The notes under the pieces: generated by a model
The model's input: only the letters and a program-made list of their open reading frames with translations
What the model was told of the DNA's origin: nothing
The model's database searches: none
Made by a program: the position numbers and the translations under genes
Assembly (NCBI GenBank): GCA_964411375.1
Contig: CAYPKR010000002.1
Span: forward strand, 129,960 to 193,959
Source of the DNA: an uncultured Candidatus Saccharibacteria bacterium
Lineage (GTDB): Bacteria; Patescibacteriota; Minisyncoccia; Phycocordibacterales; UBA12088
Length of the DNA: 64,000 nt
Direction: 5' to 3'
Shown: one piece after another, positions 1,226 to 15,852 of the stretch
Layout of the letters: each line of letters opens with the position of its first letter
Numbering within the stretch: the first letter of the stretch is position 1

Positions 1226-3199
1226 TTATTTGTTGAACTTCAAGGCTTCAATTTTTGCAATCTCGCTTCCTGGAAGTGTGTATTCGATTTTCTCTTCGAA
1301 TGACCTTGCAATAATACTCGTCACAATTCCAGCAATCGACACGACAACCAGCCACCACATCTGCCACACCATCCCAAAGCCAAAGAGAAAACTGAATCCG
1401 GCGATCATGAGCCCTACACCAGTATTTTTCGGCAAGTGAATGTCATCATATTTTGGAAGAAGTGTCGGGAGTTTCCCTTCACGTTTCATTTCCCAAAAGG
1501 CGTCGCGTTTTCCGCCGTCCGGTATGACTGCAAAATTATACTCTGGAGCGGGCGAGGAAGTGCTCCATTCAAGCGTGCGCGCATTCCATGGATCTCCGGT
1601 CGTATCGGTGCGCAATTTTCGATTCCGAATTCCTTCGAAAATTTGTACCACTTGGAGGAAAATCGCGAACGCGATAATACATGCGCCAATAGCGGCAACG
1701 ATGAGAAGCGAATGCCAACCAGTCGATGCATCGATATGATCAAGACGGCGAGTCATTCCCATGAGTCCGAGGACATAGAGCGGAATAAATGCGAGTACGA
1801 ATCCGATTATCCATGACCAAAATACCCACGTTCCGATCCGCTCCGACAATCGATATCCAAAAATCTTTGGCCACCAATACGCAAGTCCGGCAAAAAATCC
1901 GAACAAGACACCGCCAATTATCATGTTGTGGAAATGCGCGACGAGAAAGAGCGTGTTATGAAATTGAAAATCCACCCCTGGAATTGCCATGAGTACTCCG
2001 GTCATTCCCCCTATCGTGAACGTAACCAAAAATCCCATGAACCAGAGCATCGGCGTCGCAAAGGTGATCCGTCCGCGGAACATAGTGAAAAGCCAGTTGA
2101 ATACTTTGACGCCAGTTGGAATTGAAATCGCCATCGTCATGATGCCGAAAAATGCATTTACGTTTGCGCCTGCGCCCATCGTAAAAAAGTGATGGAGCCA
2201 CACCATGAACGACATGACAACGATCAAGAGTGTTGCGATAACCATCGACGTGTAGCCAAACAGTCGCTTTGCCGAAAAAACGGGGACAATTTCGGAAAAG
2301 ATTCCGAACGCCGGCAAGATAAGAATGTAGACTTCCGGATGCCCCCACGCCCAGATGAGATTGACGTACATCATAAGATTGCCACCTCCGTCTGCCGTAA
2401 AGAAATGCATACCGAGATATCGGTCGAGTGAAAGCGTTGCGAGTGTTGCGGTCAAAATTGGAAATGCGAATAAAACCAAAATCATTGAGCCTAAGCTCGT
2501 CCACACAAAAACCGGCATATTCATGAGTCGCATATTCGGCGTGCGCATTTTCACAATCGTTACGATGAAGTTTACTGCCGCGAGCAAAGTTCCTACTCCG
2601 GCAATCTGGAGTGCCCATATATAGTAGTCAACGCCCACTCCCGGAGAATACGCCATTTCAGAAAGCGGCGGATACGCGAGCCAGCCGGTCGCCGCAAATT
2701 CGCCGATAACCAGGGACGCGTTCACGAGCATCGCTCCTGCAACCGTCATCCAAAAACTAAAAGAGTTTAAAAATGGAAATGCGACATCACGTGCGCCGAT
2801 TTGGAGTGGAACGATACAATTCAACAGTCCAAACATAAACGGCATGGCGACGAAGAAAATCATGATAACGCCGTGCGCGGTAAATATTTGGTCATAATGA
2901 GATGCTTCGAGGAAACCGTTTGAAGTGCCAACTGCGATCGCTTGCTGGCCGCGCATCATTAAGGCATCGACTCCGCCACGAAAGAGCATTACTCCCGCAA
3001 GAACGAGATACATGATGCCGATTTTTTTTGCATCTACGCTCGTGAGCCATTCTTTCCATAGCCATCTAAATCGTTTGGTGTACCAGAGAATCGCAATCAC
3101 CGAAACACCTCCAAGCACAACCATCATCTGCGCGCCGGTTTCAATCGGGCCGTGAATGAAGGAATCGATCGTCAGTTTTCCAAATAAGGTTTCGAGCAT
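1226..3199 (-). CDS. cyoB: Heme-copper quinol oxidase subunit I
   Basis: 657 aa with about 14 TM segments and conserved subunit I signatures ([22 protein letters not shown], histidine ligands). Confidence 0.92.
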
Positions 3200-5658: not shown

Positions 5659-5970
5659 ATGGAAGAATCCGTGGACATCGACGCGGCCATCAAAGCCGCC
5701 AAAGATATACGACTTAAATACCGGAAAGGCACGCTCAATCCGCTCTCTTTGCTTCCGGAGCCGAAAGCCAAACTAAAAGCCGCTTTGAAAGATCGTATGA
5801 GACTCCTTGCGGGCGTATACATTTCACTCGCCAGTTTCGTCGAGGATGGCGACGTGCTCTTTGCCGAGCGCAATCCGAAGTCAAAGAAAACAAAACGAAT
5901 ATATCTCAAAGTCCTCGAGGACATGGAAACGGCGCAGAAAGAACTGCGCCGTTTTAAGTTGTTGGAGTAA
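5659..5970 (+). CDS. Hypothetical small protein (103 aa)
   Basis: Protein-like composition (MEESVDIDAAIKAAKDIRLKYRKG...). The first in-frame ATG follows an in-frame stop. It overlaps the 3' end of the convergent KAP gene by 17 nt. Confidence 0.35.
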   Translation: MEESVDIDAAIKAAKDIRLKYRKGTLNPLSLLPEPKAKLKAALKDRMRLLAGVYISLASFVEDGDVLFAERNPKSKKTKRIYLKVLEDMETAQKELRRFKLLE

Positions 5971-8900
5971 CTTCGGCTGTAGTAGCTGCCGCTTGCGCCA
6001 CCTCGGCAACATTATCATCCAAGACTTTATAAACCATCGGTATATATTTCTTATAGGATGCCTCGTCATTTCCTACGAACACAATTTTATCCTTGTCCTC
6101 AAGTTTAAGTGCTTTAAAGGCATCACCATGCTTTTGCCAAAAGGCAGCAAGTTTTACTTTATCTAGTACCTTCGTAAATTCATTGATACTTGGTACATAT
6201 TTCAATCCATCTTCTCGCGCAGAAGCAAACGCATTGGCGAAATTACGGAATAGATAATCGATAAAATATTCAGCATTTTGGGTTTTGGTTGGATCAAAAC
6301 ATACCTCAAATAAATAATTATTCACCGCATCTCTAATTCCCTGATTATCTCCAGTTCCGGCAGGATCATAGTAGCCGCATCCCGCCCCTAGGTTGATTTC
6401 AGCATTTGCCATTTGATAAAGAATGAATGCTCCGACTCTTGTCTTAAGTTCGATGGTTTTCTTCTCAAGATCTTCAACCTTGAAAACACCCTCAGATATT
6501 TTTTGATTTACAAAATCCCCGTATTTTCCAACAAGGTCGCTTGTCTCTAGAGCATCAATTTCTTCAAAGATATTTTTCTTTGGGACAATATAACGAGTAT
6601 TAAATATATCGAAGGCCTTTTGAGATATTTCTCTCATTTCTTCGCATGCAATATCTCTCGTAGAACCTTGTGTTGGAGCGTTCGGATTAGCATGTTGTGC
6701 TACAGCACGGGATAAATCAAAAATATCACCGCCACGGTCTGCGCTACACGATAATCTAAAAAGCATCAGGTCATGAACTCCTAGTACGCCTCTGCTTTCT
6801 TCCGAAAGCCTGCCGAGAACTCCGTTACCGGCATGTCGGCCGTCACCAAATATCCATTCAGCAATTTCTGCGATATGCGGCTCTACGTTGTTGGCATGTT
6901 TTCCTGCCGGATCAATCCAGCCAGCGTCATTGAGTAGCCTCGTGAGGAAATAATCGAGATTATGCCGTAATCCCATGCCCACATTCGGATCGCCCATTTC
7001 AAGCAATGAATATTCGGGTATCGTGTTTAAGAGATGATCAATAATTTCTGTTGCAATATCGTGCGGCAATTCTCGAGCATTATTTACCAATATGCGCCAT
7101 AGTCGCTCTCTAGGATATTCTCCCTCTGTATAGGCAAATTTTGGATCAGCAAAGGCCGAAGCAACAGTTGTTGTTTTATCTAGAATCTTTTCTCTCCATG
7201 ACATATAAAACCTATGTTGACCAATATCTACAGGTTTGGAGAGATTTACGATCAAATCCAAGTATGTCTCAAGATTTCTTCCATTCGTCCAGCCACCATT
7301 GAAACACGCAAGCGAAGTACGCACATCCTCCGGTACACTGTCGATGCGGGCATAGTCATTTCCTCGTGGGAAGCTTTCTCCGAGTGACTTGAGCCTTACA
7401 TCAACGTTAAATACTTGATCTAAAAGGAAACGTTGGTGACTATCTTTGGGAAATTGCTCAAGATATTCGTGGTAATAAGTCGAGTTCTTGTAGGTAGAGT
7501 CGCTGAAAGATGAGCGTCGTTGGCCATTAGTATCTTCCGGATAGCCATCTTCGTGAGGTAGCACGAGAGAAAAGAAACCGCGTCCACCTTTTGTTTCAGT
7601 ATCATATATTTTTCGAAAGACACTCGGATAGTGGATATAAATCAGCAATAGGTTAATAAGGTCTCTCTTGTCGAAATCGCTGTTTTGGAAATTAGTGTTT
7701 TGAAGATCAAACATCAAAACGGTATTTATAAGCCGCTTCAGTTTTCTAACATCTCCAATGAATGGAAGATACCGGTGGTAAATTGATGATTTGTATATAT
7801 CAAGTAAACCGCCCACCGCTTGCCGTACAGGAAGCGGGTCGACCAAGCTAGTCGTAAGCGTTTTTTCAAGATTGTCGGACACGTAGTTTGCCAGATCTGC
7901 CCGTTCCAAGTAAAGACTAATCTTTATATTCACAAACTTTTCTAAAAATTCACCAACCTTTTCTATATCCGGAGTTTCAGCTTCTAAAATGCCGATGTTT
8001 TCAGTGTCATAACAAATAACATAAGAGACGTTCGGAAATGCAAAGCTCTTTCTAATAACAAATAGGATTTCTTTTATTTCCTCAAAACTTATCCGGTCCA
8101 AATCGTCGATAACAATTATCACTTTCTTTGGAAAACGTTTAAGCACAGCACCTAAGTCATCACATGCTTCGTCGGCCGTGTAATCAACTGCAAACGATGG
8201 CAAAGTTAGTCCGAACAGAGAGAATCTGCTTATTTCTTTTAATAGTCGAGCGTAGCGTGAGATCAGCGGCTTAATTTCAGGAATGAAGGAGTCTTTCTGT
8301 ATTGCATGAATAAGTCCATCAATGAATATCTCAAGTAGGTTGGCTGTTCCGAGATAACGCAGAGGACTAAATTTGTATATGACAACCTCTCTTGCATGTT
8401 TCTCCTCCCAATATTCTTTGCAAAAGTTAATGAAAGTTGATTTTCCGATACCCCATGGCGCGTCCACGCCAAATACAAAGCTTTCAGGCGATCCACTATT
8501 AAAGACCTGCTCTGCGAACCTCTCTGCTTTTTCTGAAAAGTTAAGAAGATCGCTATCTTTGTTCTCTAATTCCTTATCTACAACAAACGATGAGTCGTTC
8601 TTTTTCTCATTCCAGATAAGTACTAACTGTCTCAACATTACAAGTATCCCCAAAATAAATGGAGCGGAAATAAGAGTAAGTATTTGAAGAATATTCAAGG
8701 ACGAGACAATTTTTATGTCCCAGTTTGATAAAAAACCTCCCCAAACTACACTTAACAAAATTCCAAAGACAAAAGCGACGACAACATCGATACGTCCACT
8801 TTTAGCAATCTTTTTAATATCGGAAAAGATGCCACGCGCCAGTAGGTATAAGATCAGCAAAGCAACTCCAAATAGAGATAGCGTTATAGCGGCACTCTCG

Positions 8901-9082
8901 TAATTACTAACTTCGATCCACTTATTGAGCTTATCTGAAAGCAGTAGTGATAAATGCCACACCTCTGCACTTAAGATACCTAAGAAGGCTGTTTTGATCA
9001 GCATTACCAAATTTGCCGTTATGATACGGAAATCGGAGAGAGTTTCTCCTAGTTTTTTGATAGATGGTTTAATTTCTCTCAT
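5954..9082 (-). CDS. KAP-family P-loop NTPase, membrane-anchored (defense-island NTPase)
   Basis: 1042 aa. About four hydrophobic helices precede the Walker A motif GVDAPWGIGKSTFINF. A Walker B motif VIIVIDDLDR follows, then a long helical C-terminal region, which is typical of KAP NTPases. The gene is A+T-rich. Confidence 0.8.
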   Translation of the reverse strand: MREIKPSIKKLGETLSDFRIITANLVMLIKTAFLGILSAEVWHLSLLLSDKLNKWIEVSNYESAAITLSLFGVALLILYLLARGIFSDIKKIAKSGRIDVVVAFVFGILLSVVWGGFLSNWDIKIVSSLNILQILTLISAPFILGILVMLRQLVLIWNEKKNDSSFVVDKELENKDSDLLNFSEKAERFAEQVFNSGSPESFVFGVDAPWGIGKSTFINFCKEYWEEKHAREVVIYKFSPLRYLGTANLLEIFIDGLIHAIQKDSFIPEIKPLISRYARLLKEISRFSLFGLTLPSFAVDYTADEACDDLGAVLKRFPKKVIIVIDDLDRISFEEIKEILFVIRKSFAFPNVSYVICYDTENIGILEAETPDIEKVGEFLEKFVNIKISLYLERADLANYVSDNLEKTLTTSLVDPLPVRQAVGGLLDIYKSSIYHRYLPFIGDVRKLKRLINTVLMFDLQNTNFQNSDFDKRDLINLLLIYIHYPSVFRKIYDTETKGGRGFFSLVLPHEDGYPEDTNGQRRSSFSDSTYKNSTYYHEYLEQFPKDSHQRFLLDQVFNVDVRLKSLGESFPRGNDYARIDSVPEDVRTSLACFNGGWTNGRNLETYLDLIVNLSKPVDIGQHRFYMSWREKILDKTTTVASAFADPKFAYTEGEYPRERLWRILVNNARELPHDIATEIIDHLLNTIPEYSLLEMGDPNVGMGLRHNLDYFLTRLLNDAGWIDPAGKHANNVEPHIAEIAEWIFGDGRHAGNGVLGRLSEESRGVLGVHDLMLFRLSCSADRGGDIFDLSRAVAQHANPNAPTQGSTRDIACEEMREISQKAFDIFNTRYIVPKKNIFEEIDALETSDLVGKYGDFVNQKISEGVFKVEDLEKKTIELKTRVGAFILYQMANAEINLGAGCGYYDPAGTGDNQGIRDAVNNYLFEVCFDPTKTQNAEYFIDYLFRNFANAFASAREDGLKYVPSINEFTKVLDKVKLAAFWQKHGDAFKALKLEDKDKIVFVGNDEASYKKYIPMVYKVLDDNVAEVAQAAATTAEVTPTT

Positions 9083-9147
9083 GCTTAATACATCAATTAT
9101 CCACTTTTTAAGTTGAGATGTAAAGAATTGTAAAGTATAATTCTATT

Positions 9148-9324
9148 ATGACAGGCAAAGAGTTCTACACCGCTCAAGAATTAGCCGATAAATTAGGGGT
9201 AAATATTATGACTATTTACCGCTATATCAAAGCTAAGAAATTCAAGGCCTATAAATTAGGTAAGGAATTCAGAATAGACAAAGCCGATTTCAAATCTTTC
9301 ATGGAAAAGGCAAAGACCATTTAA
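9148..9324 (+). CDS. Small excisionase/MerR-type HTH DNA-binding protein (59 aa); putative controller of the R-M operon
   Basis: Translation from ATG at 9148 gives MTGKEFYTAQELADKLGVNIMTIYRYIKAKKFKAYKLGKEFRIDKADFKSFMEKAKTI. The ORF is below the 60-aa cutoff of the supplied track. Its stop lies 3 nt before the methyltransferase start. Confidence 0.65.
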   Translation: MTGKEFYTAQELADKLGVNIMTIYRYIKAKKFKAYKLGKEFRIDKADFKSFMEKAKTI

Positions 9325-9327
9325 TTT

Positions 9328-11313
9328 ATGCAAACACTTCCCATTAATACTAAAACAATAGACCTGGAAGAAGCAGGGACTCTGCTCGGGGTTTCGGGCG
9401 CAACCATACGAAATTGGATCAGACATAGCTATATCACCCCTGAAAACACCACTAATAAGAAAATGGTGTTTAAACATGCCGAGATACAAGAGCTGAAAAA
9501 CAAAATCGAATCTGGAGAAATAAGTCGTTTGAGCAAACGTGCCAACAAAAGGAATTCATCAAATACTTTTATTCCTGATGAGTATGCCGACAACGACGAG
9601 GTCTATGTACTTGTAAAAGAGATTATCGATATTTATCGATCAAATGATCTCAACAAAGATAGCGTCATATTTTCCTTATTGCTTAACGTACTTAAGAACG
9701 TTGGATTAGTTGAATACCCGACGACTTTTGATATTTCGAAGATCACCTTTAAAAGCAAAACAGTAGAACAAGAGCTTAGTTGGTGGCTAAAAAACGCGCA
9801 GCATAATTTGGCCTCAAATAACTATAGCGATCTCTTGAATATTGATCTGCCAAAGGTTAATGACATCGTTGGACTCATTTATCAGTCCTTAAGTAATGAG
9901 GGGGATAAAGCAGAAGGCGGTTCTTATTACACTCCCAAGGTGGTAGTGGATGAGGCTGTAGAAAGATATATTAAACAGGACTTACTTGTTCTCGATCCAT
10001 GCTGTGGTACAGGTCAGTTTCTTCTATCGGCCTCTAAGAAAATTAAAAATCCAAGCAATATTTGGGGTTTCGATATAGATGAAAAAGCCGTAAGAATAGC
10101 GAGATTGAATCTCTTGGCTCAATACCCAAGGGAAGACTTTGTACCAAATATTTTTCATAGAAATACACTTCTTTCTTCGAGAGGTCTTTTTGGGAACGAT
10201 ACTCCTGAATTTGATGTAGTAATAACCAATCCGCCTTGGGGAGTACATTTTTCTTCCTCTGAAATTAGAGAGCTGGGGGCACTCTATCCATATATAAATT
10301 CCAACGAAGCTTTCTCATATTTTATCGCTAGAGGCTTAGAATTCTTAAAAGAAGGCGGCGTTTTGTCGTACATTCTTCCAGAATCAATTTTGAATGTTAA
10401 ATCTCACAGAGACATTCGAGAGATACTGCTTACAAAAACAAGAATAAAGAAAGTTAAGCATCTTGATAGAGTCTTTAAAAATGTTTTTACGCCGGTGATT
10501 AGGCTTGATGTGGCTAAATTAACTCCTGAAGATACAGATGAGTTTGAGGTTGAAAAAGCAGAATTGAAACACACAATTAAGCAATCCCGCTTGAAGAATA
10601 ACAATGATTATTTGTTTGATGTATTTAATGGAGATCAAGAACTAGGTATTTTTGAGAAAGTCTATAGTGTCGATCATACAACTCTTAAAAATAACGCCGA
10701 ATGGGCATTGGGCGTAGTAACCGGAGACAACAAGAAACATCTTAAAGAGACTAAATCGAGTGAATTTGAACCCATTTTAACCGGCAAAGAAATAAAGAGG
10801 TTTATAGTGGCTCAACCAAAGAATTTTATTAAATTTGAACCTGGTAAATTCCAGCAGGTAGCTCCGGAATATAAATATAGGGTGCCAGAGAAACTCATTT
10901 ATAAGTTCATCTCAAAGGACTTGGTATTTTCCTATGACAATCAGCAAACCCTTACATTAAATAGCGCAAATATTCTTATCCCGGAGGTAGAAAATTACCC
11001 AGTAAAAACTATTCTCGCGCTATTTAATTCATCGCTTTATCAATTCATATACCAGAAAAAGTTTGGTGCTATAAAAATCTTGAGAAGTGATCTTGAACAA
11101 TTACCGCTCCCCATCCTTCCAGCGAATCAGCATGAAAGATTGAACTTACTTGTTGAGAGATTGCTTGATACTGATCTTGGATTAGAGGAAAGAAAATCGG
11201 AATATCTCAAACTTGATAATGCTATATTATCCCTGTTTTCCTTAAGCAAGGTTGAACAGGAATATATAAGATCAAACGTAAAAATGTCGGACAAATTATT
11301 AAACTTTCAATAA
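9328..11313 (+). CDS. Type II N6-adenine DNA methyltransferase, gamma class (Eco57I/TaqI-like) with an N-terminal HTH
   Basis: 661 aa. Motif I is VLDPCCGTGQFL, motif IV is NPPWG, and a C-terminal TaqI-like specificity region is present. The N-terminus LEEAGTLLGVSGATIRNWIRH is an HTH. Confidence 0.9.
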   Translation: MQTLPINTKTIDLEEAGTLLGVSGATIRNWIRHSYITPENTTNKKMVFKHAEIQELKNKIESGEISRLSKRANKRNSSNTFIPDEYADNDEVYVLVKEIIDIYRSNDLNKDSVIFSLLLNVLKNVGLVEYPTTFDISKITFKSKTVEQELSWWLKNAQHNLASNNYSDLLNIDLPKVNDIVGLIYQSLSNEGDKAEGGSYYTPKVVVDEAVERYIKQDLLVLDPCCGTGQFLLSASKKIKNPSNIWGFDIDEKAVRIARLNLLAQYPREDFVPNIFHRNTLLSSRGLFGNDTPEFDVVITNPPWGVHFSSSEIRELGALYPYINSNEAFSYFIARGLEFLKEGGVLSYILPESILNVKSHRDIREILLTKTRIKKVKHLDRVFKNVFTPVIRLDVAKLTPEDTDEFEVEKAELKHTIKQSRLKNNNDYLFDVFNGDQELGIFEKVYSVDHTTLKNNAEWALGVVTGDNKKHLKETKSSEFEPILTGKEIKRFIVAQPKNFIKFEPGKFQQVAPEYKYRVPEKLIYKFISKDLVFSYDNQQTLTLNSANILIPEVENYPVKTILALFNSSLYQFIYQKKFGAIKILRSDLEQLPLPILPANQHERLNLLVERLLDTDLGLEERKSEYLKLDNAILSLFSLSKVEQEYIRSNVKMSDKLLNFQ

Positions 11314-11316
11314 AAC

Positions 11317-12057
11317 ATGCAACTTCTAAAGGAAAAACTTAATCAGTTAATCGATGAGCTCTCCGCAGATAAAAAGGAGATGATACGGGGACGGCTTGCC
11401 GATCTTATCTCCGTATACCCGTTCAATGAGTACGAATATATAATCTCCTCCCTTATGGGTTTTGGAAAGATTACGCTCGATGATTACCTTGAAATCAGGG
11501 ATGAATATATCGCACGAAACATGTATCTCTATATCTTCGAAATAGGCTCGCCTCGCGGTTTCGGAGAGCAATGGGCTCAAGGTCATCTTAAAGAGTTGGT
11601 TCCGGAGCTAGTAAAGCCCACAAAGAAAGTAGAGGAAAACTACAAGGGAGATTATGATTTTTTATTACCCAATCAGGATGATCTGATAAGAATTGAAGTA
11701 AAAGCCTCGAGAGCAGTTGATGGAGCTAGTGCTGAACCTTTGTATGTAAAAGCTCTTGCTTTCGAAAACAAGCAACCTTTCTGGATGAACTTTCAACAGA
11801 TTAAGCCAGCTCACTGTGATGTGTTTGTGTGGGTTGCTGTGTGGAGAGACGTGATCAAATACTGGGTGCTCTCATCGGATGAAGTAAAAGCAAATAAATA
11901 CTATTCTAAAGGCCAACATAGAGGAAATGTTGGAGAAGGCCAGTTGCATATTAAGGATGACAATATTAAGGATTTTCAGATTTACGAAGTCAAACCAAAC
12001 GAACTTAAAGACGCTATCGTTAGAGCGTACGAGCGACAGAAAGGTATCACTAAGTAA
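11317..12057 (+). CDS. Putative type II restriction endonuclease (PD-(D/E)xK-like)
   Basis: 246 aa, starting 4 nt after the methyltransferase stop. It contains a D...DDLIRIEVKAS pattern compatible with a PD-ExK active site. No other identifiable family signature was seen. Confidence 0.5.
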   Translation: MQLLKEKLNQLIDELSADKKEMIRGRLADLISVYPFNEYEYIISSLMGFGKITLDDYLEIRDEYIARNMYLYIFEIGSPRGFGEQWAQGHLKELVPELVKPTKKVEENYKGDYDFLLPNQDDLIRIEVKASRAVDGASAEPLYVKALAFENKQPFWMNFQQIKPAHCDVFVWVAVWRDVIKYWVLSSDEVKANKYYSKGQHRGNVGEGQLHIKDDNIKDFQIYEVKPNELKDAIVRAYERQKGITK

Positions 12058-12110
12058 CGATGCCTTTTGAGCATTTCGGATATGAGACAAAAGTGTCTTA
12101 TTTCTGAAAA

Positions 12111-12140
12111 GCTGACTGGAAGTTAGCTTAAACCTTACTT
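12111..12140. other. Hairpin (8-bp stem CTGGAAGT/ACTTCCAG) at the junction between the A+T-rich R-M operon and the GC-richer recombinase module
   Basis: ctggaagttagcttaaaccttacttccag. There is no clear T-tract. Confidence 0.3.
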
Positions 12141-12150
12141 CCAGTACAAA

Positions 12151-12813
12151 ATGATTATGAAGATGAAAAAGGCCTTACTGGCCAGGACATATACACTCAA
12201 TACGAACCGGTCCGTGGGTAAAGCAACCACGTATCTGTTTTCTATATCAGCCATTACCGGCGAATTGCGATCCGCGCTTAAGGATTTTGCGGATGTTGAG
12301 CGGCCGGCCGAGATCGTAAAGACCAGCGATCCGGCTATTCAAGCTCTCGTCGGCGCACTCAATCGAAACAGCGAAAGCATCGAATCCATGACACGTGCCT
12401 ATCTTACTGCTTTGAATAAAATTGCAGATTTGGAAACGAGCGTTGCGAAACTCACGGCCGAAGGCGCAGCGTACGGCCTTGCCGGCAAGCGAACTAAACC
12501 AGCAGACAAAAAGACAATCTATCTTTCGAACGATGGCGACTTATACCGCGAGCCGAAAGCGAAGCATTGTTATGCGATGGGCAAGGAAAAGCAACGCCAG
12601 AAGATCGTGCGGGTCCTACTTGAAAGGAAGACCTATGTGCCCACGGATGCGCTCGTGGAGCTCTCCGGCAGTAAGAATCGCAAATCACTGCACAACGCGA
12701 AACTCATGATCAATCGCAAAGTGCGGTACGCGCTGGGTATTGAAAACTTTATCGTCGGCCGCGCGGTAAGCGGCTACAAACTCAATCCGGAATACAAAAT
12801 AAAGCAGGTGTAG
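12151..12813 (+). CDS. DNA-binding protein with a C-terminal OmpR/PhoB-type winged helix
   Basis: 220 aa. The C-terminus KIVRVLLERKTYVPTDALVE...NRKVRYALGIENFIVGRAVSGYKL matches the Trans_reg_C wing pattern (..RLR.KL.....I.TVRG.GY.L). The GC content is higher than in the adjacent R-M genes. Confidence 0.5.
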   Translation: MIMKMKKALLARTYTLNTNRSVGKATTYLFSISAITGELRSALKDFADVERPAEIVKTSDPAIQALVGALNRNSESIESMTRAYLTALNKIADLETSVAKLTAEGAAYGLAGKRTKPADKKTIYLSNDGDLYREPKAKHCYAMGKEKQRQKIVRVLLERKTYVPTDALVELSGSKNRKSLHNAKLMINRKVRYALGIENFIVGRAVSGYKLNPEYKIKQV

Positions 12814-13210
12814 CTCTGGTGTAGTTAATAAGTTGGTACTGCAAGCAGCAAAACGGCTGCTTTTTTCGTATCTGGCTACACGTCCGCAGTATGGTAAACG
12901 CCCATTCATGCTTGCAACAATAAAAGCGTGTGAGAGGAAGTTAATGACAATGAAAATGCCACATGCAAAACAATTATTACAAAACCGCCGATCTGGCATT
13001 GGTCGCGGTGCTTTTATTATTCATTCCTGATTCTCTGGAGGTCGTGGATCGGGGAAATCCGCACAAGGTGCTCTTTTGTTTCGGCAAGAGCCCTGACTTG
13101 GATTCTCTGGTGAAGCGATACTGGAATCGCGAGCTTGTGGTCGAACCGCAGGCGTTCTTCAACCAGCTCAAACAGGTCAAAGTACGGATTTATGCCGAGG
13201 ACTAAGACCT

Positions 13211-13420
13211 GTGAAAATCAAACCGGAAACGCTGGAGAAACTCCGCGCGATCCTGAAGCACGACTTCAGTCTTGAGGTAAGCGACCAAGACCTGCACGAC
13301 ATCGCCTTCAATCTGGTGCGGTACTACGACGCGCTATCGCGGTTTTACGTCGAGGACATCACGAGCGGCCGCACGCTCATCGAACCCTATGACACCCAAC
13401 CCAAGCGAACAAAAGCATAA
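13211..13420 (+). CDS. Hypothetical small protein (69 aa)
   Basis: ORF in the higher-GC recombinase module. It overlaps the next ORF by 32 nt in a different frame. Confidence 0.3.
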   Translation: MKIKPETLEKLRAILKHDFSLEVSDQDLHDIAFNLVRYYDALSRFYVEDITSGRTLIEPYDTQPKRTKA

Positions 13421-13961
13421 GGTCCGAGACTACCGCGAAGCGCCGTTTGCCTACCAAGACAAACCAGCCTTGCGCTTTATGCGCCAGGAATGGATCGACA
13501 AAAGAATAAGCGACGATGCATATCGCAACCTGCGCAACGTGTACTGTGCGCTTACCGAGATCGCATCGAATAAAGCGAGCCAAACCATCGAAGCGTCGAA
13601 TAAGACGATGCTTCTCTACTGTGGGCTCAAAGACTGGCGGACGATTAAGAAATGCTTGGACACGCTCGAAGTGTGGGCGTTTATCGCGATCACCAAAGTT
13701 CGCGGCGCGGATGCCAAGTTCAAGCCGCGAAGCATCACACTTCTTTCCGTCCTACATCTGGCGCAGGATGGTGGCCGATCTGCACGTGAAGCCATACGGC
13801 AAAGCACGCACACAGGCTGCGAGGCAGAAGATAAAGAAGCTAAGGGATTAAAAGAAATTAAAGAAAATTATAAAGAAACTAGCGGTGACTTCGAGAAAAT
13901 AAAGGAAATTCGGCAAATGAAGGCTCAATTACTGAAGAAAATGAGTATGCGAGGCAAATAA
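13389..13961 (+). CDS. Hypothetical protein (190 aa), cargo of the element
   Basis: Protein-like composition with a Lys/Glu-rich C-terminus. No recognisable motif. Confidence 0.4.
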   Translation: MTPNPSEQKHKVRDYREAPFAYQDKPALRFMRQEWIDKRISDDAYRNLRNVYCALTEIASNKASQTIEASNKTMLLYCGLKDWRTIKKCLDTLEVWAFIAITKVRGADAKFKPRSITLLSVLHLAQDGGRSAREAIRQSTHTGCEAEDKEAKGLKEIKENYKETSGDFEKIKEIRQMKAQLLKKMSMRGK

Positions 13962-14175: not shown

Positions 14176-15792
14176 ATGATTATGACTATGAATCAAGAAA
14201 ATCAACCCTTACGCGCCGTCGGCTACGCTCGCGTGTCGTCCAAGGATCAGGAAGACACCGGCTATTCGCTGCCGGCGCAAGAAAAGCTTCTGCGGGATTA
14301 TGCCGACCGGAATGGCTACGATCTGGTCAAAGTATTTGCCATTCAAGAATCGGCCGCGGGCAAGGTCCAGCGCAAGATATTTCACGAAATGATGGAGTAT
14401 GTGTCGAAAGCGAAAATCACTACGATCTTCGTCGAGACGACTGACCGCCTTACGCGCAACTTCGCCGATGTGCCGGTTATCGACGAGTGGATTCTTGCCG
14501 ACGAGAAGCACATGATCCATCTCGTCAAAGAAAGCTGCACGCTCCATAAAGACTCGAAATCTCACGAATGGTTTATGTGGCGCGTGAAAGTTGCTACAGC
14601 CGAGTACTACATCCGGCTCCTTTCCGAGAACGTGAAGAAAGGCCAGAAAGAAAAGCTGGCGCAAGGCTGGCTACCGACACGGCCGCCGCTTGGCTATAAA
14701 ACCATCGGCGAGAAAGGACATAAAATCCATGTGCTCGATGAGGACAAAGCGCCGATCGTCAAAAGAATGTTCGAACTGTATGCTACCAACATCAGCTCGA
14801 CCAAAAAGCTTGCCGATGAAATGTACCGGCTCGGTATGCGCTCGCGTGGAGGCAACAAGGTAAGCCACTCACGCGTGCACCAGCTCCTTGGCGATCCGTT
14901 CTATTACGGTATGAACCGCTGGAACGGCAAAGTCGCGCAAGGCAATCATGAGCCTCTGATCACCAAAGAATTATTTATGCGATGCCAAGACATCATGCAC
15001 AGCAACGGCACGCCAAAATACAACAAACACAATTCGCTTTTTAAGAACGTGTTTAAGTGCGAGGAATGCAAAGGCCGCGTAACATGGGAGATACAGAAAG
15101 GCCACTGGTACGGACACTGCAACCATTACAAGAATTGCACGCAGCGCGAATATGTCCGGCAAGAAACGGTCGATGAGCAAGTCATGGAAAATATCGAGCA
15201 GTTAAGCTCAAAGCATGACGAAGCCATCGAGCATATGCTCACCTGGGTCCAAGAAGCTCTCAAGGAAAGCCACAGCGAGGAAATAGAATTTAGGGAAAAG
15301 GCCACCGGCGAGCTTGAACGACGTTATCAAATGGCAACCCAGCGGCTCGACAAGATATATGACGATAAGATCGACGGCAAAATCAGCGAGGAGTTCTATC
15401 AGAAAAAGTATGCTCAATACAAGCTTGAGCAGGAAGAAGTGATGGATAGCCTCAATAAGCATAAGAATGCCAATCTCAAGTACTACGACATGGGCTCGAC
15501 GTTCTTGCAGATGGCCAAGGAGGCACGAAGGATTTACCTCAACCGAAGCACTATCGAGATGGTCGATGACAAGAAGCTCTTAATGTCTCTATTATTTTCG
15601 AACTCGACCATAAATAGCAAGAAAGTTGATATTTCATACCATAAAGCCTTCAAAATCATCTCCGATCGCGTGATGCAGATGTTGGGAGAAAAAATACCCA
15701 AAAATAAAACTTTCGAACCGCCAAAAAAGCCCGTCAATAAAGGAAAAACACCAGCTTTCGCTGATGTTAATCCTATCTGGCTCCGGCGGTAG
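14176..15792 (+). CDS. Large serine recombinase (resolvase catalytic domain + recombinase domain + zinc ribbon)
   Basis: N-terminal catalytic domain LRAVGYARVSSKDQ (catalytic Ser). A Cys-rich zinc beta-ribbon CEECKGRVTW...GHCNHYKNC is present. The protein is 538 aa. The last 5 codons are encoded by the 3' end of the tRNA-Asn gene. Confidence 0.9.
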   Translation: MIMTMNQENQPLRAVGYARVSSKDQEDTGYSLPAQEKLLRDYADRNGYDLVKVFAIQESAAGKVQRKIFHEMMEYVSKAKITTIFVETTDRLTRNFADVPVIDEWILADEKHMIHLVKESCTLHKDSKSHEWFMWRVKVATAEYYIRLLSENVKKGQKEKLAQGWLPTRPPLGYKTIGEKGHKIHVLDEDKAPIVKRMFELYATNISSTKKLADEMYRLGMRSRGGNKVSHSRVHQLLGDPFYYGMNRWNGKVAQGNHEPLITKELFMRCQDIMHSNGTPKYNKHNSLFKNVFKCEECKGRVTWEIQKGHWYGHCNHYKNCTQREYVRQETVDEQVMENIEQLSSKHDEAIEHMLTWVQEALKESHSEEIEFREKATGELERRYQMATQRLDKIYDDKIDGKISEEFYQKKYAQYKLEQEEVMDSLNKHKNANLKYYDMGSTFLQMAKEARRIYLNRSTIEMVDDKKLLMSLLFSNSTINSKKVDISYHKAFKIISDRVMQMLGEKIPKNKTFEPPKKPVNKGKTPAFADVNPIWLRR

Positions 15793-15852
15793 GATTCGAA
15801 CCTACAACCAACGCGTTAACAGCGCGCTGCTCTACCATTGAGCTACACCGGA
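15778..15852 (-). tRNA. tRNA-Asn (anticodon GTT)
   Basis: Minus-strand sequence: TCCGGTGTAGCTCAATGGTAGAGCAGCGCGCTGTTAACGCGTTGGTTGTAGGTTCGAATCCTACCGCCGGAGCCA. It has a cloverleaf with a 7-bp acceptor stem, GTT anticodon, GGTTCGAATCC T-arm and an encoded CCA. A TAGAAT -10 element lies about 10 nt upstream. Confidence 0.85.

What the first reader, a model, noticed from the sequence alone, without database searches (positions are those of the whole stretch)
9148..11313. Two HTH layers on the R-M operon: a 59-aa excisionase-type HTH ORF missed by the ORF track, plus an HTH fused to the methyltransferase
A complete 59-aa ORF (MTGKEFYTAQELADKLGVNIMTIYRYIKAKKF...) lies just below the 60-aa cutoff and ends 3 nt before the methyltransferase ATG. 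The methyltransferase itself begins with a second MerR/excisionase-type HTH before the DPCCGTG / NPPW catalytic core. Classical controller proteins of R-M systems are XRE-type. An Xis-type micro-HTH plus an HTH-fused methylase is an unusual regulatory design and may time methylation against restriction after transfer.
Basis: partly seen in the sequence, partly recalled or inferred. Interest (0 to 1): 0.5.

Follow-up and report, generated by a model that had tools for sequence, protein, structure and literature searches.

The report
Portable regulator cassette heading restriction operons
A real 58-residue DNA-binding protein gene, with its own conserved promoter and repeat operator, heads this restriction-modification operon, and the same cassette heads restriction systems of every type (and a recombinase gene) in many ultra-small Patescibacteria, which points to an apparently undescribed kind of controller for mobile defence genes.

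Summary
A 58-aa ORF (not 59) at 9148-9324 ends 3 nt before a 661-aa N6-adenine methyltransferase gene. A 246-aa type II endonuclease gene follows after another 3 nt. The small protein is a solid HTH_17/excisionase-type winged helix. It is under purifying selection and has more than 1000 close relatives.

The methyltransferase does carry an N-terminal winged helix. This is a trait of the whole enzyme family across many phyla, and most members have no small ORF. The "two layers" are therefore two independent modules, not a co-evolved pair.

The new result concerns the small gene. It comes with a nearly invariant promoter, TTG..-TGTAAAG-N3-TGTAAAG-TATAAT, placed 6-8 nt before the ATG in most loci. 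The whole cassette heads Type I, II, IIG and III R-M operons and large serine recombinase genes in Patescibacteria.

The most likely mechanism is a BldC/Xis-like monomer pair bound head-to-tail on the two direct repeats in the promoter spacer. This would autorepress a leaderless operon, and here also a divergent KAP NTPase promoter. DNA binding is inferred, not shown.

It works like an R-M controller or RptR but belongs to a different fold class: a new variant of a known kind.

The parts
5954..9082 (-). Divergent 1042-aa KAP-family P-loop NTPase gene (PifA-like by PADLOC). It is probably co-regulated through the shared operator.
   Evidence: Pfam KAP_NTPase 3.4e-38. PADLOC PifA 3.8e-29. GC is low (about 0.40) like the R-M genes. 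A minus-strand promoter-like site, TTTACA-17-GATAAT, runs from 9124 to 9096.
9096..9124 (-). Predicted divergent promoter, with -35 TTTACA at 9124-9119 and -10 GATAAT at 9101-9096. Its -35 is the reverse complement of direct repeat 1.
   Evidence: 10 of 12 consensus matches. I saw the same TTTACA-17-GATAAT geometry in the upstream sequences of L081 and L091, which also have a divergent gene; this was read by eye, not scanned.
9113..9141 (+). Operon promoter, with -35 TTGAGA at 9113-9118, a 17-nt spacer and -10 TATAAT at 9136-9141. The -10 ends 6 nt before the ATG, so a leaderless mRNA is predicted.
   Evidence: This is the best promoter-like site in 8900-12400, with 11 of 12 matches. The consensus over 73 distinct related sequences is TTGc.aTGTAAAGaAttGTAAAGTATaAT with unconserved flanks. 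In 41 of 73 the first ATG lies 6-8 nt after the -10, and only 14 of 73 have an SD-like motif.
9119..9135 (+). Predicted operator: two direct repeats, TGTAAAG at 9119-9125 and at 9129-9135. They are 10 bp apart start to start and fill the whole promoter spacer.
   Evidence: This is the only such pair in the 64-kb window. The exact motif lies upstream of the small ORF in L002, L081/L082 and L083 and in none of the other 79 loci held then. With up to 3 mismatches it is present upstream in 74 of 79 metagenomic loci, and the 5 without it are cut short at the 5' end.
9148..9324 (+). Small 58-aa winged-helix (HTH_17 / BldC-Xis-like) protein gene, the predicted autoregulator.
   Evidence: Searches give the family hits. 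The AlphaFold model has mean pLDDT 86.7 and the order strand-helix-helix-hairpin-helix. The best Foldseek matches are BldC, RacA, Pukovnik Xis and RdfS, with TM 0.68-0.72. pN/pS is 0.20.
9328..11313 (+). 661-aa gamma-class N6-adenine DNA methyltransferase with a TaqI-type specificity domain.
   Evidence: Pfam N6_Mtase 4.8e-25, TaqI_C 3e-23, Eco57I 3.2e-20. PADLOC MTase_II 2.7e-125. The fold is closest to CamA, M.BseCI and M.TaqI.
9355..9513 (+). N-terminal winged-helix domain of the methyltransferase (residues about 10-62), a family-wide fused HTH.
   Evidence: Pfam HTH_17 is sub-threshold at E 2e-3. L20, G21, S23, A25, T26, R28, N29 and W30 are at least 90% conserved. The model shows E10-12, H13-20, H24-32, E47-49 and H50-62 at pLDDT 63-81.
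9529..9585 (+). Invariant basic linker motif RLxKRANK...FIPxEY (residues 68-86) between the HTH and the catalytic core. Function unknown.
   Evidence: L68, R71, A72, N73, K74, P83 and E85 are invariant. Residues 68-73 have pLDDT below 50.
11317..12057 (+). 246-aa type II restriction endonuclease gene, starting 3 nt after the methyltransferase stop.
   Evidence: PADLOC REase_II PDLC03414 5.2e-75. A homologue at 53-87% identity lies directly downstream of the methyltransferase in about 50 of 80 genome loci.
12151..13961 (+). Four co-directional ORFs of unknown function (220, 80, 69 and 190 aa) between the R-M genes and the recombinase gene.
   Evidence: None has a Pfam or PHROG hit. They are absent from the compact HTH-M-R-recombinase units in L002, L003 and L076.
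14176..15792 (+). 538-aa large serine recombinase, the likely integrase of the element that carries the cassette and the R-M genes.
   Evidence: Pfam Resolvase 8.4e-22, Recombinase 1.6e-18, Zn_ribbon_recom 4.5e-5. Homologues occur in 29 of 80 metagenomic small-HTH loci. They lie immediately after the endonuclease gene in L002, L003 and L076.
15778..15852 (-). tRNA-Asn gene overlapping the last 15 nt of the recombinase gene. It is the probable attachment site and right end of the element.
   Evidence: ARAGORN.

Best explanation
The 58-aa protein is most likely the autoregulator, probably a repressor, of a portable expression cassette.

What the cassette is. It consists of a near-consensus sigma-70-type promoter whose 17-nt spacer is filled by two TGTAAAG direct repeats one helical turn apart. 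The regulator gene follows so closely that its mRNA should be leaderless.

How it would work (inferred). Two monomers of this dimerisation-domain-less, BldC/Xis-like winged helix would bind head-to-tail on the repeats. That would occlude RNA polymerase at the rightward promoter, which drives HTH-M-R and probably the downstream genes up to the serine recombinase. It would also occlude the leftward promoter for the KAP NTPase gene, whose -35 is repeat 1.

Expected behaviour (inferred). After the element enters a naive cell there is no regulator. The operon should fire in a burst of methyltransferase, endonuclease and recombinase, and then shut itself down to a maintenance level.

How general it is. 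The cassette is not specific to this enzyme pair. In Patescibacteria it heads Type I, II, IIG and III R-M operons and serine recombinase genes.

The fused HTH. The winged helix on the methyltransferase is a separate, family-wide feature of unknown role. It could be SsoII-like self-repression or a DNA clamp.

Shown: gene reality, fold class, promoter and repeat conservation, and genomic association. Inferred: DNA binding, the sign of regulation, leaderless transcription and co-transcription of the operon.
For: 1. Family and fold. HTH_17 and TIGR01764 score above their cut-offs. The AlphaFold model is confident and matches BldC, Pukovnik Xis and RdfS best. BldC binds direct repeats one helical turn apart as head-to-tail multimers (PMC5859096). 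The Xis-like protein D29 Gp36 is a repressor that binds direct repeats (PMC12266134).

2. Operator. Two exact TGTAAAG copies 10 bp apart fill the spacer between TTGAGA and TATAAT. The block TTG..TGTAAAG...TGTAAAGTATAAT is 90-100% conserved over 73 distinct sequences, while the flanks are 30-50% conserved. It travels with the gene in 74 of 79 loci. The recognition helix NIMTIYRYI is invariant in 40 of 40 relatives.

3. Position. The regulator is followed by the next gene at -4 to +7 nt in most loci.

4. Association with R-M. In 54 of 75 sampled loci the next gene is an R-M component, drawn from four methyltransferase classes plus IIG fusions and endonucleases. One identical 58-aa protein precedes both a Type I and a Type III system. 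A Type I operon carries the cassette with no recombinase within 10 kb.

5. Leaderless geometry. In 41 of 73 sequences the ATG lies 6-8 nt after the -10, and only 14 of 73 have an SD-like motif.

6. Divergent promoter. It overlaps repeat 1 in the window, and the same geometry is seen in L081 and L091.

7. Precedents for small non-XRE regulators that head defence operons: RptR (PMC12255303) and mad1 of MADS.
Against: No binding, transcript or expression data exist; everything about mechanism is inference from sequence. With an invariant recognition helix and invariant repeats, protein-DNA covariation cannot be tested.

The conserved spacer could in principle serve another factor. BldC-type proteins can activate as well as repress.

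The more distant small HTHs in L017 and L076 lack the TGTAAAG motif, so the operator assignment holds only for the close family.

Homologues also sit directly before serine recombinase genes in 9 of 75 loci. The role may therefore concern the mobile element rather than R-M as such.

The 80 metagenomic loci are the best-scoring of at least 500, not a random sample.
Confidence: 0.6

Rival explanations
1. The small protein is the recombination directionality factor (excisionase) of the large serine recombinase at 14176-15792. The R-M genes are merely cargo lying between an xis-like gene and its recombinase gene.
For: The family hit is 'excisionase family', and the structural matches include Pukovnik Xis and RdfS. 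A recombinase homologue is present in 29 of 80 sampled loci. It is the very next gene in 9 of 75 loci. Compact HTH-M-R-recombinase units exist in L002, L003 and L076. Within the methyltransferase family, the small HTH occurs almost only where a recombinase is present.
Against: The only TGTAAAG pair in the window lies in the promoter, with none near the recombinase or tRNA end. The repeats keep a fixed register inside a promoter in 73 sequences, which is the geometry of an operator rather than of an attachment-site arm. A Type I operon carries the cassette with no recombinase within 10 kb. From general knowledge, not tested here: winged-helix Xis proteins partner tyrosine integrases, and known factors for large serine recombinases act by protein contact. 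A dual role (regulator plus directionality factor, as for P4 Vis or P2 Cox) is not excluded.
Confidence: 0.15
2. It is a functional equivalent of a classical C protein. It would activate at low concentration and repress at high concentration, delaying the endonuclease relative to the methyltransferase after transfer.
For: The gene occupies the slot that XRE/HTH_3 ORFs of 67-70 aa occupy in three relatives of the same M-R family. It shows leaderless geometry; C genes are said to be leaderless too (general knowledge, not checked here). It is tightly linked to R-M genes of all types.
Against: The gene precedes M, and M and R follow in one operon with 3-nt gaps. One switch therefore cannot separate their timing. 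The promoter is already near consensus, with an optimal 17-nt spacer, so it needs no activator. There are only two sites and they are direct repeats, not the paired palindromic C-boxes. The fold is not XRE.
Confidence: 0.1
3. The small HTH and the HTH fused to the methyltransferase form one co-evolved, two-tier circuit acting on the same or adjacent operators.
For: Both have the same winged-helix topology and lie 3 nt apart. Every relative that has a small upstream regulator also keeps the fused HTH.
Against: The fused HTH is found across more than 1500 homologues in many phyla, and only 4 of 80 genomes have the small HTH_17 ORF. The small HTH mostly precedes unrelated genes. The two domains share no detectable sequence similarity. 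No shared motif was found upstream of the methyltransferase gene in 68 loci that lack a small regulator.
Confidence: 0.08
4. The small ORF is a chance ORF, or a decayed remnant with no function.
Against: pN/pS is 0.20 and variation is concentrated at third codon positions. There are more than 1000 homologous clusters of constant length. The gene is called and conserved in the 78%-identical relative. Profile hits are strong.
Confidence: 0.01

Closest known systems
Controller (C) proteins of type II R-M systems (C.PvuII, C.AhdI, C.Esp1396I and others)
   Same: Both are small, stand-alone proteins encoded inside the R-M operon, with predicted autogenous control from an operator in their own promoter. 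Both show leaderless-type geometry. Relatives of this very M-R pair carry an XRE-type ORF in the same slot.
   Different: The fold is a MerR/Xis-like winged helix, not the lambda cI/XRE five-helix fold. The operator is two direct repeats, not palindromic C-boxes. The gene precedes the methyltransferase and the whole operon, not specifically the endonuclease. It also heads Type I, III and IIG systems and recombinase genes.
BldC family (Streptomyces BldC; small MerR-like winged-helix proteins without a dimerisation domain)
   Same: BldC is the best structural match, with TM 0.71-0.74 over 49-54 columns. The sizes are similar (58 against 68 aa). BldC binds direct repeats one helical turn apart, head to tail, which matches the 10-bp register of the TGTAAAG pair.
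   Different: Sequence identity is only about 25%. BldC is a pleiotropic developmental regulator of chromosomal genes with AATT-type repeats. Here the protein sits in a self-contained mobile cassette, and binding has not been tested.
Winged-helix excisionases (mycobacteriophage Pukovnik Xis 4j2n, RdfS, lambda/Tn916-type Xis) and the Xis-like repressor D29 Gp36
   Same: It meets the TIGR01764 'excisionase family' cut-off. Pukovnik Xis matches by sequence (E 8e-4) and by structure. These proteins bind direct repeats, and D29 Gp36 shows that an Xis-like protein can act as a transcriptional repressor.
   Different: The partner here is a large serine recombinase, not a tyrosine integrase. The repeats lie inside a promoter rather than in an attachment-site arm, and the cassette also occurs without any nearby recombinase.
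RptR, the RMS-proximal transcriptional regulator of Type I R-M / DarTG islands in Gammaproteobacteria (PMC12255303)
   Same: It is a small repressor encoded first in the operon, immediately upstream of hsdM. It binds short direct repeats that overlap the -10, and it is conserved together with its site next to R-M systems.
   Different: The fold is unrelated; the authors found no close structural homologue for RptR. Its repeats contain a 6-bp palindrome bound by a dimer. The host range differs, and RptR is tied to Type I systems only.
Mad1, the first gene of the MADS (methylation-associated defence system) operon
   Same: It is a small HTH_17-like protein directly upstream of an N6 methyltransferase (mad2). 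The PADLOC mad1 model matches at 2.5e-11. Deleting mad1 had little effect on defence, as expected for a regulator.
   Different: The NCBIfam MADS1 score is 27 against a cut-off of 80. The genes mad3-mad8 are absent, and this locus has a plain type II endonuclease.
Regulatory methyltransferases with an N-terminal HTH (M.SsoII, M.Ecl18kI, M.EcoRII, M.MspI)
   Same: In both, an HTH domain is fused to the N-terminus of the methyltransferase through a flexible linker. In the known cases it represses the enzyme's own promoter (review PMC12707154).
   Different: The known cases are C5-cytosine enzymes with divergent M and R promoters. This is a gamma-class N6-adenine enzyme with M and R in tandem. 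No operator was found for its HTH, and its recognition helix is nearly invariant across phyla.

Membership tests
HTH_17 / excisionase-family DNA-binding domain (PF12728, TIGR01764) | The profile score exceeds the curated cut-off over the full domain. | tested here: met
   PF12728 scores 50.9 bits against 27, covering residues 6-55 of 58. TIGR01764 scores 49.6 bits against 28.8.
HTH_17 / excisionase-family DNA-binding domain (PF12728, TIGR01764) | The fold is a MerR/Xis-type winged helix (strand, helix-turn-helix, beta-hairpin wing, C-terminal helix). | tested here: met
   The AlphaFold model has pLDDT 86.7 and the elements E6-8, H9-16, H20-28, E34-37, E40-44 and H45-57. The best PDB matches are BldC, RacA, Pukovnik Xis, pSK1 Par and RdfS.
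BldC family of regulators | A small winged-helix-only protein that lacks the coiled-coil dimerisation and effector domains of MerR. | tested here: met
   The protein is 58 aa and the single domain spans nearly all of it.
BldC family of regulators | Cooperative head-to-tail binding to direct repeats about one helical turn apart. | not testable with these tools
   A matching site exists: TGTAAAG twice, 10 bp apart, conserved in 74 of 79 loci. Binding itself needs EMSA or footprinting.
R-M controller (C) proteins | An XRE / lambda cI-like helix-turn-helix fold (Pfam HTH_3 and relatives). | tested here: not met
   HTH_3 scores only 15.4 bits against a cut-off of 23, while HTH_17 dominates. There is no XRE-type structure among the top fold matches.
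R-M controller (C) proteins | Palindromic C-box operators, as paired inverted repeats upstream of the C gene. | tested here: not met
   The conserved elements are direct repeats. The one 9-nt inverted repeat in the window (9124-9144) is not conserved in L002.
R-M controller (C) proteins | The gene lies immediately upstream of, and is co-transcribed with, the endonuclease gene. | tested here: not met
   The gene precedes the methyltransferase gene and the endonuclease gene is third. In other loci it precedes methyltransferases, fusions, endonucleases or recombinases.
MADS system (Mad1) | The NCBIfam MADS1 equivalog score reaches its cut-off, and the mandatory mad6-8 genes are present. | tested here: not met
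   NF047737 scores 27 bits against 80, and NF047738 (Mad2) scores 58.9 against 720. No other mad genes were detected among the neighbours scanned with PADLOC.
Recombination directionality factor (excisionase) in function | It is encoded next to its recombinase, with binding sites in an attachment-site arm, and it stimulates excision. | tested here: inconclusive
   A recombinase is present 4.9 kb downstream, and is adjacent in 9 of 75 related loci. No repeats were found at the recombinase or tRNA end, and one locus has no recombinase within 10 kb. Activity cannot be tested here.
Regulatory HTH-methyltransferase fusions (SsoII / Ecl18kI / EcoRII type) | An N-terminal HTH domain is joined to the catalytic domain by a linker. 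| tested here: met
   The motif is conserved. The model shows a winged helix at residues 10-62 followed by a low-confidence linker at 68-73. The Pfam HTH_17 hit is sub-threshold.
Regulatory HTH-methyltransferase fusions (SsoII / Ecl18kI / EcoRII type) | The catalytic domain is a C5-cytosine methyltransferase. | tested here: not met
   The enzyme has N6_Mtase, Eco57I and TaqI_C domains and an NPPW motif. Its fold is closest to CamA, M.BseCI and M.TaqI.
Regulatory HTH-methyltransferase fusions (SsoII / Ecl18kI / EcoRII type) | There is an operator for the fused HTH in the enzyme's own promoter region. | tested here: inconclusive
   K-mer enrichment over 68 upstream regions found only a motif specific to one Spirochaetota clade. 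The absence of a shared motif does not exclude host-specific or intragenic sites.
Type II R-M system (gamma-class N6A methyltransferase plus endonuclease) | A methyltransferase with motifs I and IV and a specificity domain lies next to a cognate endonuclease gene. | tested here: met
   DPCCGTG and NPPW are present. PADLOC gives MTase_II 2.7e-125 and REase_II 5.2e-75. The pair is kept together in about 50 of 80 genomes. The recognition sequence and enzyme activity were not tested.

The most novel reading that the evidence does not exclude
The cassette of promoter, TGTAAAG direct-repeat operator and leaderless 58-aa BldC/Xis-like gene may be a previously undescribed, non-XRE class of universal front-end controller for mobile defence genes in Patescibacteria. 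It would have been recruited interchangeably in front of Type I, II, IIG and III R-M systems and large serine recombinases. It could also double as the directionality factor of the recombinase. One protein would then couple the burst of R-M expression and integration on arrival in a new cell to later silencing and stable maintenance.
Probability: 0.4. Interest if true: 0.7.

Novelty: new variant of a known kind. Interest (0 to 1): 0.6.

Why it matters
R-M systems must be switched on safely when they enter a new cell. The textbook answers are XRE-type C proteins, promoter methylation, antisense RNA and HTH-fused C5 methyltransferases. RptR was added for Type I systems only in 2025.

This locus points to another solution with a different fold and a direct-repeat operator. 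It is modular: the same 45-bp control region and 58-aa gene are bolted onto R-M systems of every type, and onto a serine recombinase, in the candidate phyla radiation. Those bacteria are thought to rely on R-M rather than CRISPR (general knowledge, not checked here), and nothing is known there about defence regulation.

The system is small enough to test directly, with a 58-aa protein and a 30-bp site. It could also give a compact orthogonal repressor-operator pair. The compact HTH-M-R-recombinase units suggest how R-M systems move between these genomes.

Tried and rejected
1. I looked for a shared operator for the methyltransferase's own HTH, using k-mer enrichment (k = 7-10) in the 170 nt upstream of the gene in 68 loci without a small regulator. 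Only AGTATTAAT turned up. It is confined to one Spirochaetota clade of endonuclease-less enzymes, at -110 to -130.

2. BLASTP between the small protein and the methyltransferase N-terminus gave no alignment, so there is no evidence of a recent duplication.

3. I searched for a repeat of the tRNA-Asn / recombinase end to mark the other end of the element. No exact match of 11 nt or more was found on either strand, so the left boundary is undefined.

4. TGTAAAG occurs 5 times in the window against 5.7 expected, and none lies near the recombinase end.

5. A scan of IMG/VR for the exact operator gave 41 hits, none with the small gene or the recombinase. They belong to a few phage families with 10-bp tandem repeats and lack the promoter context. 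They are unrelated to the cassette.

6. tblastn of the small protein against GenBank phages and PLSDB plasmids found nothing at E <= 1e-3.

7. The PDB sequence search gave nothing for the endonuclease. The recognition sequence could not be inferred.

8. Literature searches for excisionase-type or HTH_17 controllers of R-M found nothing relevant. This is absence from the searchable library, not proof of novelty.

9. MADS membership was rejected on score cut-offs.


Full report
**1. What is at the coordinates**

The ORF list and the raw sequence show three tightly packed plus-strand genes:
- a 661-aa ORF at 9328-11313, starting 3 nt after the first stop;
- a 246-aa ORF at 11317-12057, again 3 nt later.

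A 1042-aa KAP-family NTPase gene (5954-9082) is transcribed divergently, leaving a 65-nt intergenic region.

The small protein matches Pfam HTH_17 (E 1.8e-13, 50.9 bits, cut-off 27). It also matches TIGR01764 'excisionase family' (49.6 bits, cut-off 28.8).

The large protein is a gamma-class N6-adenine methyltransferase with N6_Mtase, Eco57I and TaqI_C domains and the motifs DPCCGTG and NPPW. PADLOC places it in a type II methyltransferase model at 2.7e-125, and places the third gene in a type II endonuclease model at 5.2e-75. The structures closest to its predicted fold are CamA, M.BseCI and M.TaqI.

G+C falls to 0.36-0.41 over about 6-12 kb, against about 0.46 around it. RpoC at the window's end is closest to Paceibacterota/Parcubacteria proteins, so the host is a patescibacterium.

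**2. The small ORF is a real gene**

A protein search found 1053 clusters at E <= 1e-5. The best 120 are 57-71 aa long and 72-88% identical. In an alignment of 40 of them, 19 positions are invariant, including the recognition helix N-x-MTIYRYI.

Across 45 distinct homologous coding sequences mean pS is 0.80 and mean pN is 0.16, a ratio of 0.20. Codon-position entropy is 0.46/0.32/1.33. This is clear purifying selection on this reading frame.

An AlphaFold model built from the alignment is confident (mean pLDDT 86.7). It has the order strand, helix, helix, beta-hairpin, helix. Its best PDB matches are BldC bound to DNA, RacA, mycobacteriophage Pukovnik Xis, the pSK1 Par DNA-binding domain and the RdfS excisionase, with TM 0.68-0.72. 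The protein is therefore a MerR/Xis-like winged helix that has no dimerisation or effector domain.

**3. The HTH fused to the methyltransferase is a family trait**

The methyltransferase has 1563 relatives at E <= 1e-10. The best 120 are almost all 640-690 aa and cover 97-100% of the query.

In a 30-sequence alignment (45-78% identity), 29 keep the N-terminal segment. L20, G21, S23, A25, T26, R28, N29 and W30 are at least 90% conserved. An invariant RLxKRANK...FIPxEY stretch follows.

The full-length model gives residues 10-62 the same strand-helix-helix-wing-helix order as the small protein, at pLDDT 63-81. A low-confidence linker follows at residues 68-73. Pfam alone does not certify this HTH (E 2e-3, below cut-off).

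A scan of one genome per species returned 80 loci from many phyla: Patescibacteria, Poribacteria, Spirochaetota, Ignavibacteriota, Planctomycetota and some archaea. A homologous endonuclease gene lies directly downstream in about 50 of them. A small HTH_17 ORF lies directly upstream in only four: L002, L003, L017 and L076.

Three others (L023, L024, L026) carry a 67-70-aa HTH_3/XRE ORF in exactly that slot (E 1e-15 to 1e-17). This is a classical C-protein-like gene.

The upstream regulator slot is therefore optional and interchangeable, while the fused HTH is constant. I found no motif shared by the upstream regions of the 68 loci that lack a small regulator. The two HTHs show no sequence similarity to each other.

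**4. The small gene carries its own promoter and operator**

In the window the best promoter-like site is TTGAGA (9113-9118), a 17-nt spacer and TATAAT (9136-9141), with 11 of 12 consensus matches. The spacer is exactly TGTAAAG-AAT-TGTAAAG: two direct repeats 10 bp apart. It is the only such pair in 64 kb.

The same block lies upstream of the small ORF in the 78%-identical relative (L081/L082) and in L002. In L003 it lies one extra small ORF further upstream.

I then sampled the small-protein family itself. Context look-ups for three homologues, and 80 metagenomic loci found with the family alignment, were examined. The motif TGTAAAG-N3-TGTAAAGTAT, allowing up to 3 mismatches, is present upstream in 74 of 79 loci. 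The five exceptions are contigs cut within 65-714 nt of the gene. Where the motif is not directly in front of the gene, a single extra ORF lies between them in nearly every case.

Over 73 distinct sequences the consensus is TTGc.aTGTAAAGaAttGTAAAGTATaAT, at 90-100% per column, against 30-50% in the flanks. In 41 of them the first ATG lies 6-8 nt after the -10, and only 14 show an SD-like motif. This geometry predicts a leaderless mRNA.

On the minus strand of the window, TTTACA-17-GATAAT (9124 to 9096) is a second promoter-like site whose -35 is the complement of repeat 1. The same arrangement is visible in L081 and L091, the other loci with a divergent gene.

**5. What the cassette precedes**

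The next gene starts -4 to +7 nt from the small gene's stop in most loci. Among 75 scorable loci the next gene is:
- an R-M component in 54: 18 N4/N6 beta-class, 10 gamma-class N6, 4 C5 and 2 Dam-class methyltransferases, 10 IIG/MmeI-like fusions, and 10 endonuclease or helicase-nuclease genes;
- a large serine recombinase in 9;
- something else in 12.

An identical 58-aa protein heads a Type I hsdMSR operon in one contig and a Type III mod-res pair in another.

Recombinases homologous to the window's (14176-15792) are present in 29 of the 80 loci, usually co-directional after the cargo. L002, L003 and L076 are compact HTH-M-R-recombinase units.

In the window the recombinase gene overlaps a tRNA-Asn gene, a likely attachment site. 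However, a Paceibacterota genome carries HTH-hsdMSR with no recombinase within 10 kb on either side. The link to R-M therefore does not depend on the recombinase.

**6. Most likely mechanism**

The closest structural relative, BldC, binds direct repeats one helical turn apart as head-to-tail multimers (PMC5859096). The Xis-like protein Gp36 of phage D29 represses transcription from direct repeats (PMC12266134).

Two in-phase repeats fill the spacer of an already near-consensus promoter and abut its -10. The simplest reading is autorepression by promoter occlusion, extended here to the divergent KAP NTPase promoter.

Because the regulator is absent on arrival in a new cell, the operon would fire once and then settle at a low level. 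This logic suits both R-M establishment and recombinase-mediated integration.

All of this is inference. No binding or transcript data exist. Activation, or a dual role as directionality factor, is not excluded.

The design cannot by itself delay the endonuclease relative to the methyltransferase, since both lie behind the same promoter.

**7. Comparison with known systems**

In function it resembles C proteins and, more closely, RptR. RptR is a small repressor encoded first in Type I R-M islands that binds direct repeats overlapping the -10 (PMC12255303).

It is not a member of either family. The fold is not XRE, the operator is not palindromic, and RptR has an unrelated fold.

The nearest named relative in defence databases is Mad1 of MADS, at PADLOC 2.5e-11. 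It fails the NCBIfam cut-off (27 against 80) and the other mad genes are missing.

The fused HTH recalls SsoII/Ecl18kI/EcoRII-type regulatory methyltransferases (review PMC12707154). Those are C5 enzymes with known operators, and none was found here.

Full-text searches for excisionase-type or HTH_17 regulators of R-M systems found nothing relevant.

**8. Verdict**

The 'two-layer' idea is best replaced by 'two independent modules'.

One of the modules is the interesting part: a conserved, portable promoter-operator-regulator cassette that heads R-M systems of all types in Patescibacteria. I rate it a new variant of a known kind (autoregulated controllers of mobile defence genes), of moderate to good interest, and directly testable.

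Noticed in passing
window 1226-3199 (-): This gene encodes cytochrome o ubiquinol oxidase subunit I (TIGR02843 CyoB, 1064 bits, above the 1020 cut-off). The genome's RpoC is closest to Paceibacterota/Parcubacteria. A terminal oxidase is unusual for these reduced genomes.
   Followed up: no
window 15778-15852 (-): A tRNA-Asn gene overlaps the last 15 nt of the serine recombinase gene. It is a likely integration site. No partial duplicate of the tRNA was found to mark the other end of the element.
   Followed up: partly
window 5954-9124 (-): The 1042-aa KAP NTPase gene (PifA-like in PADLOC) has a predicted promoter whose -35 is the complement of operator repeat 1. It may be a second defence gene under the same regulator. 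L081 and L091 have different divergent genes with the same promoter geometry.
   Followed up: partly
L023:153-365, L024:187-399, L026:603-806; L019:1478-2338: Relatives of the same methyltransferase-endonuclease pair carry a 67-70-aa XRE/HTH_3 ORF ending 2-4 nt before the methyltransferase gene. L019 has an XRE ORF plus an ORF with an HELGH zinc-protease motif (ImmA-like by eye). One R-M family thus uses different regulator classes in one slot.
   Followed up: partly
L046, L051, L056, L059-L061, L066, L067, L075: A Spirochaetota clade of this methyltransferase family has no endonuclease gene nearby. It shares the motif AGTATTAAT about 110-130 nt upstream. This may be a vertically inherited orphan methyltransferase.
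   Followed up: no
window 9529-9585 (methyltransferase residues 68-86): The motif RLxKRANK...FIPxEY is invariant across phyla but is predicted disordered. It lies between the fused HTH and the catalytic core, and its function is unknown.
   Followed up: no
L002:410-4119, L003:3590-8220, L076:971-4102: These are compact four-gene units of small HTH, methyltransferase, endonuclease and serine recombinase with almost no spacers. They look like minimal self-mobilising R-M elements.
   Followed up: partly
L097-L171 (for example L099:3418-3993, L101:1471-2427, L107:3256-3996): In about 30 loci one extra gene lies between the repeat promoter and the small HTH gene. Examples are a serine hydrolase, a HARE-HTH protein and a SAM methyltransferase. 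The cassette therefore tolerates insertions on both sides of the regulator gene.
   Followed up: partly
window 5659-5970 (+) and L001:3635-3952: A 103-aa ORF of unknown function has a 55%-identical homologue directly upstream of the methyltransferase gene in L001, a Saccharibacteria genome that lacks the small HTH. This suggests that the KAP NTPase gene and the cassette were inserted between them in the window.
   Followed up: no
L081:10716-12625: In the 78%-identical relative, the called recombinase product also carries tRNA-methyltransferase (MnmA-type) domains. This may be a gene-calling fusion, or integration into mnmA instead of a tRNA gene.
   Followed up: no
L172-L212 (IMG/VR): Forty-one viral contigs contain exact TGTAAAG-N3-TGTAAAGTAT but have no small HTH gene. 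They fall into a few phage families with 10-bp tandem repeats, which may be binding sites for some other protein.
   Followed up: partly
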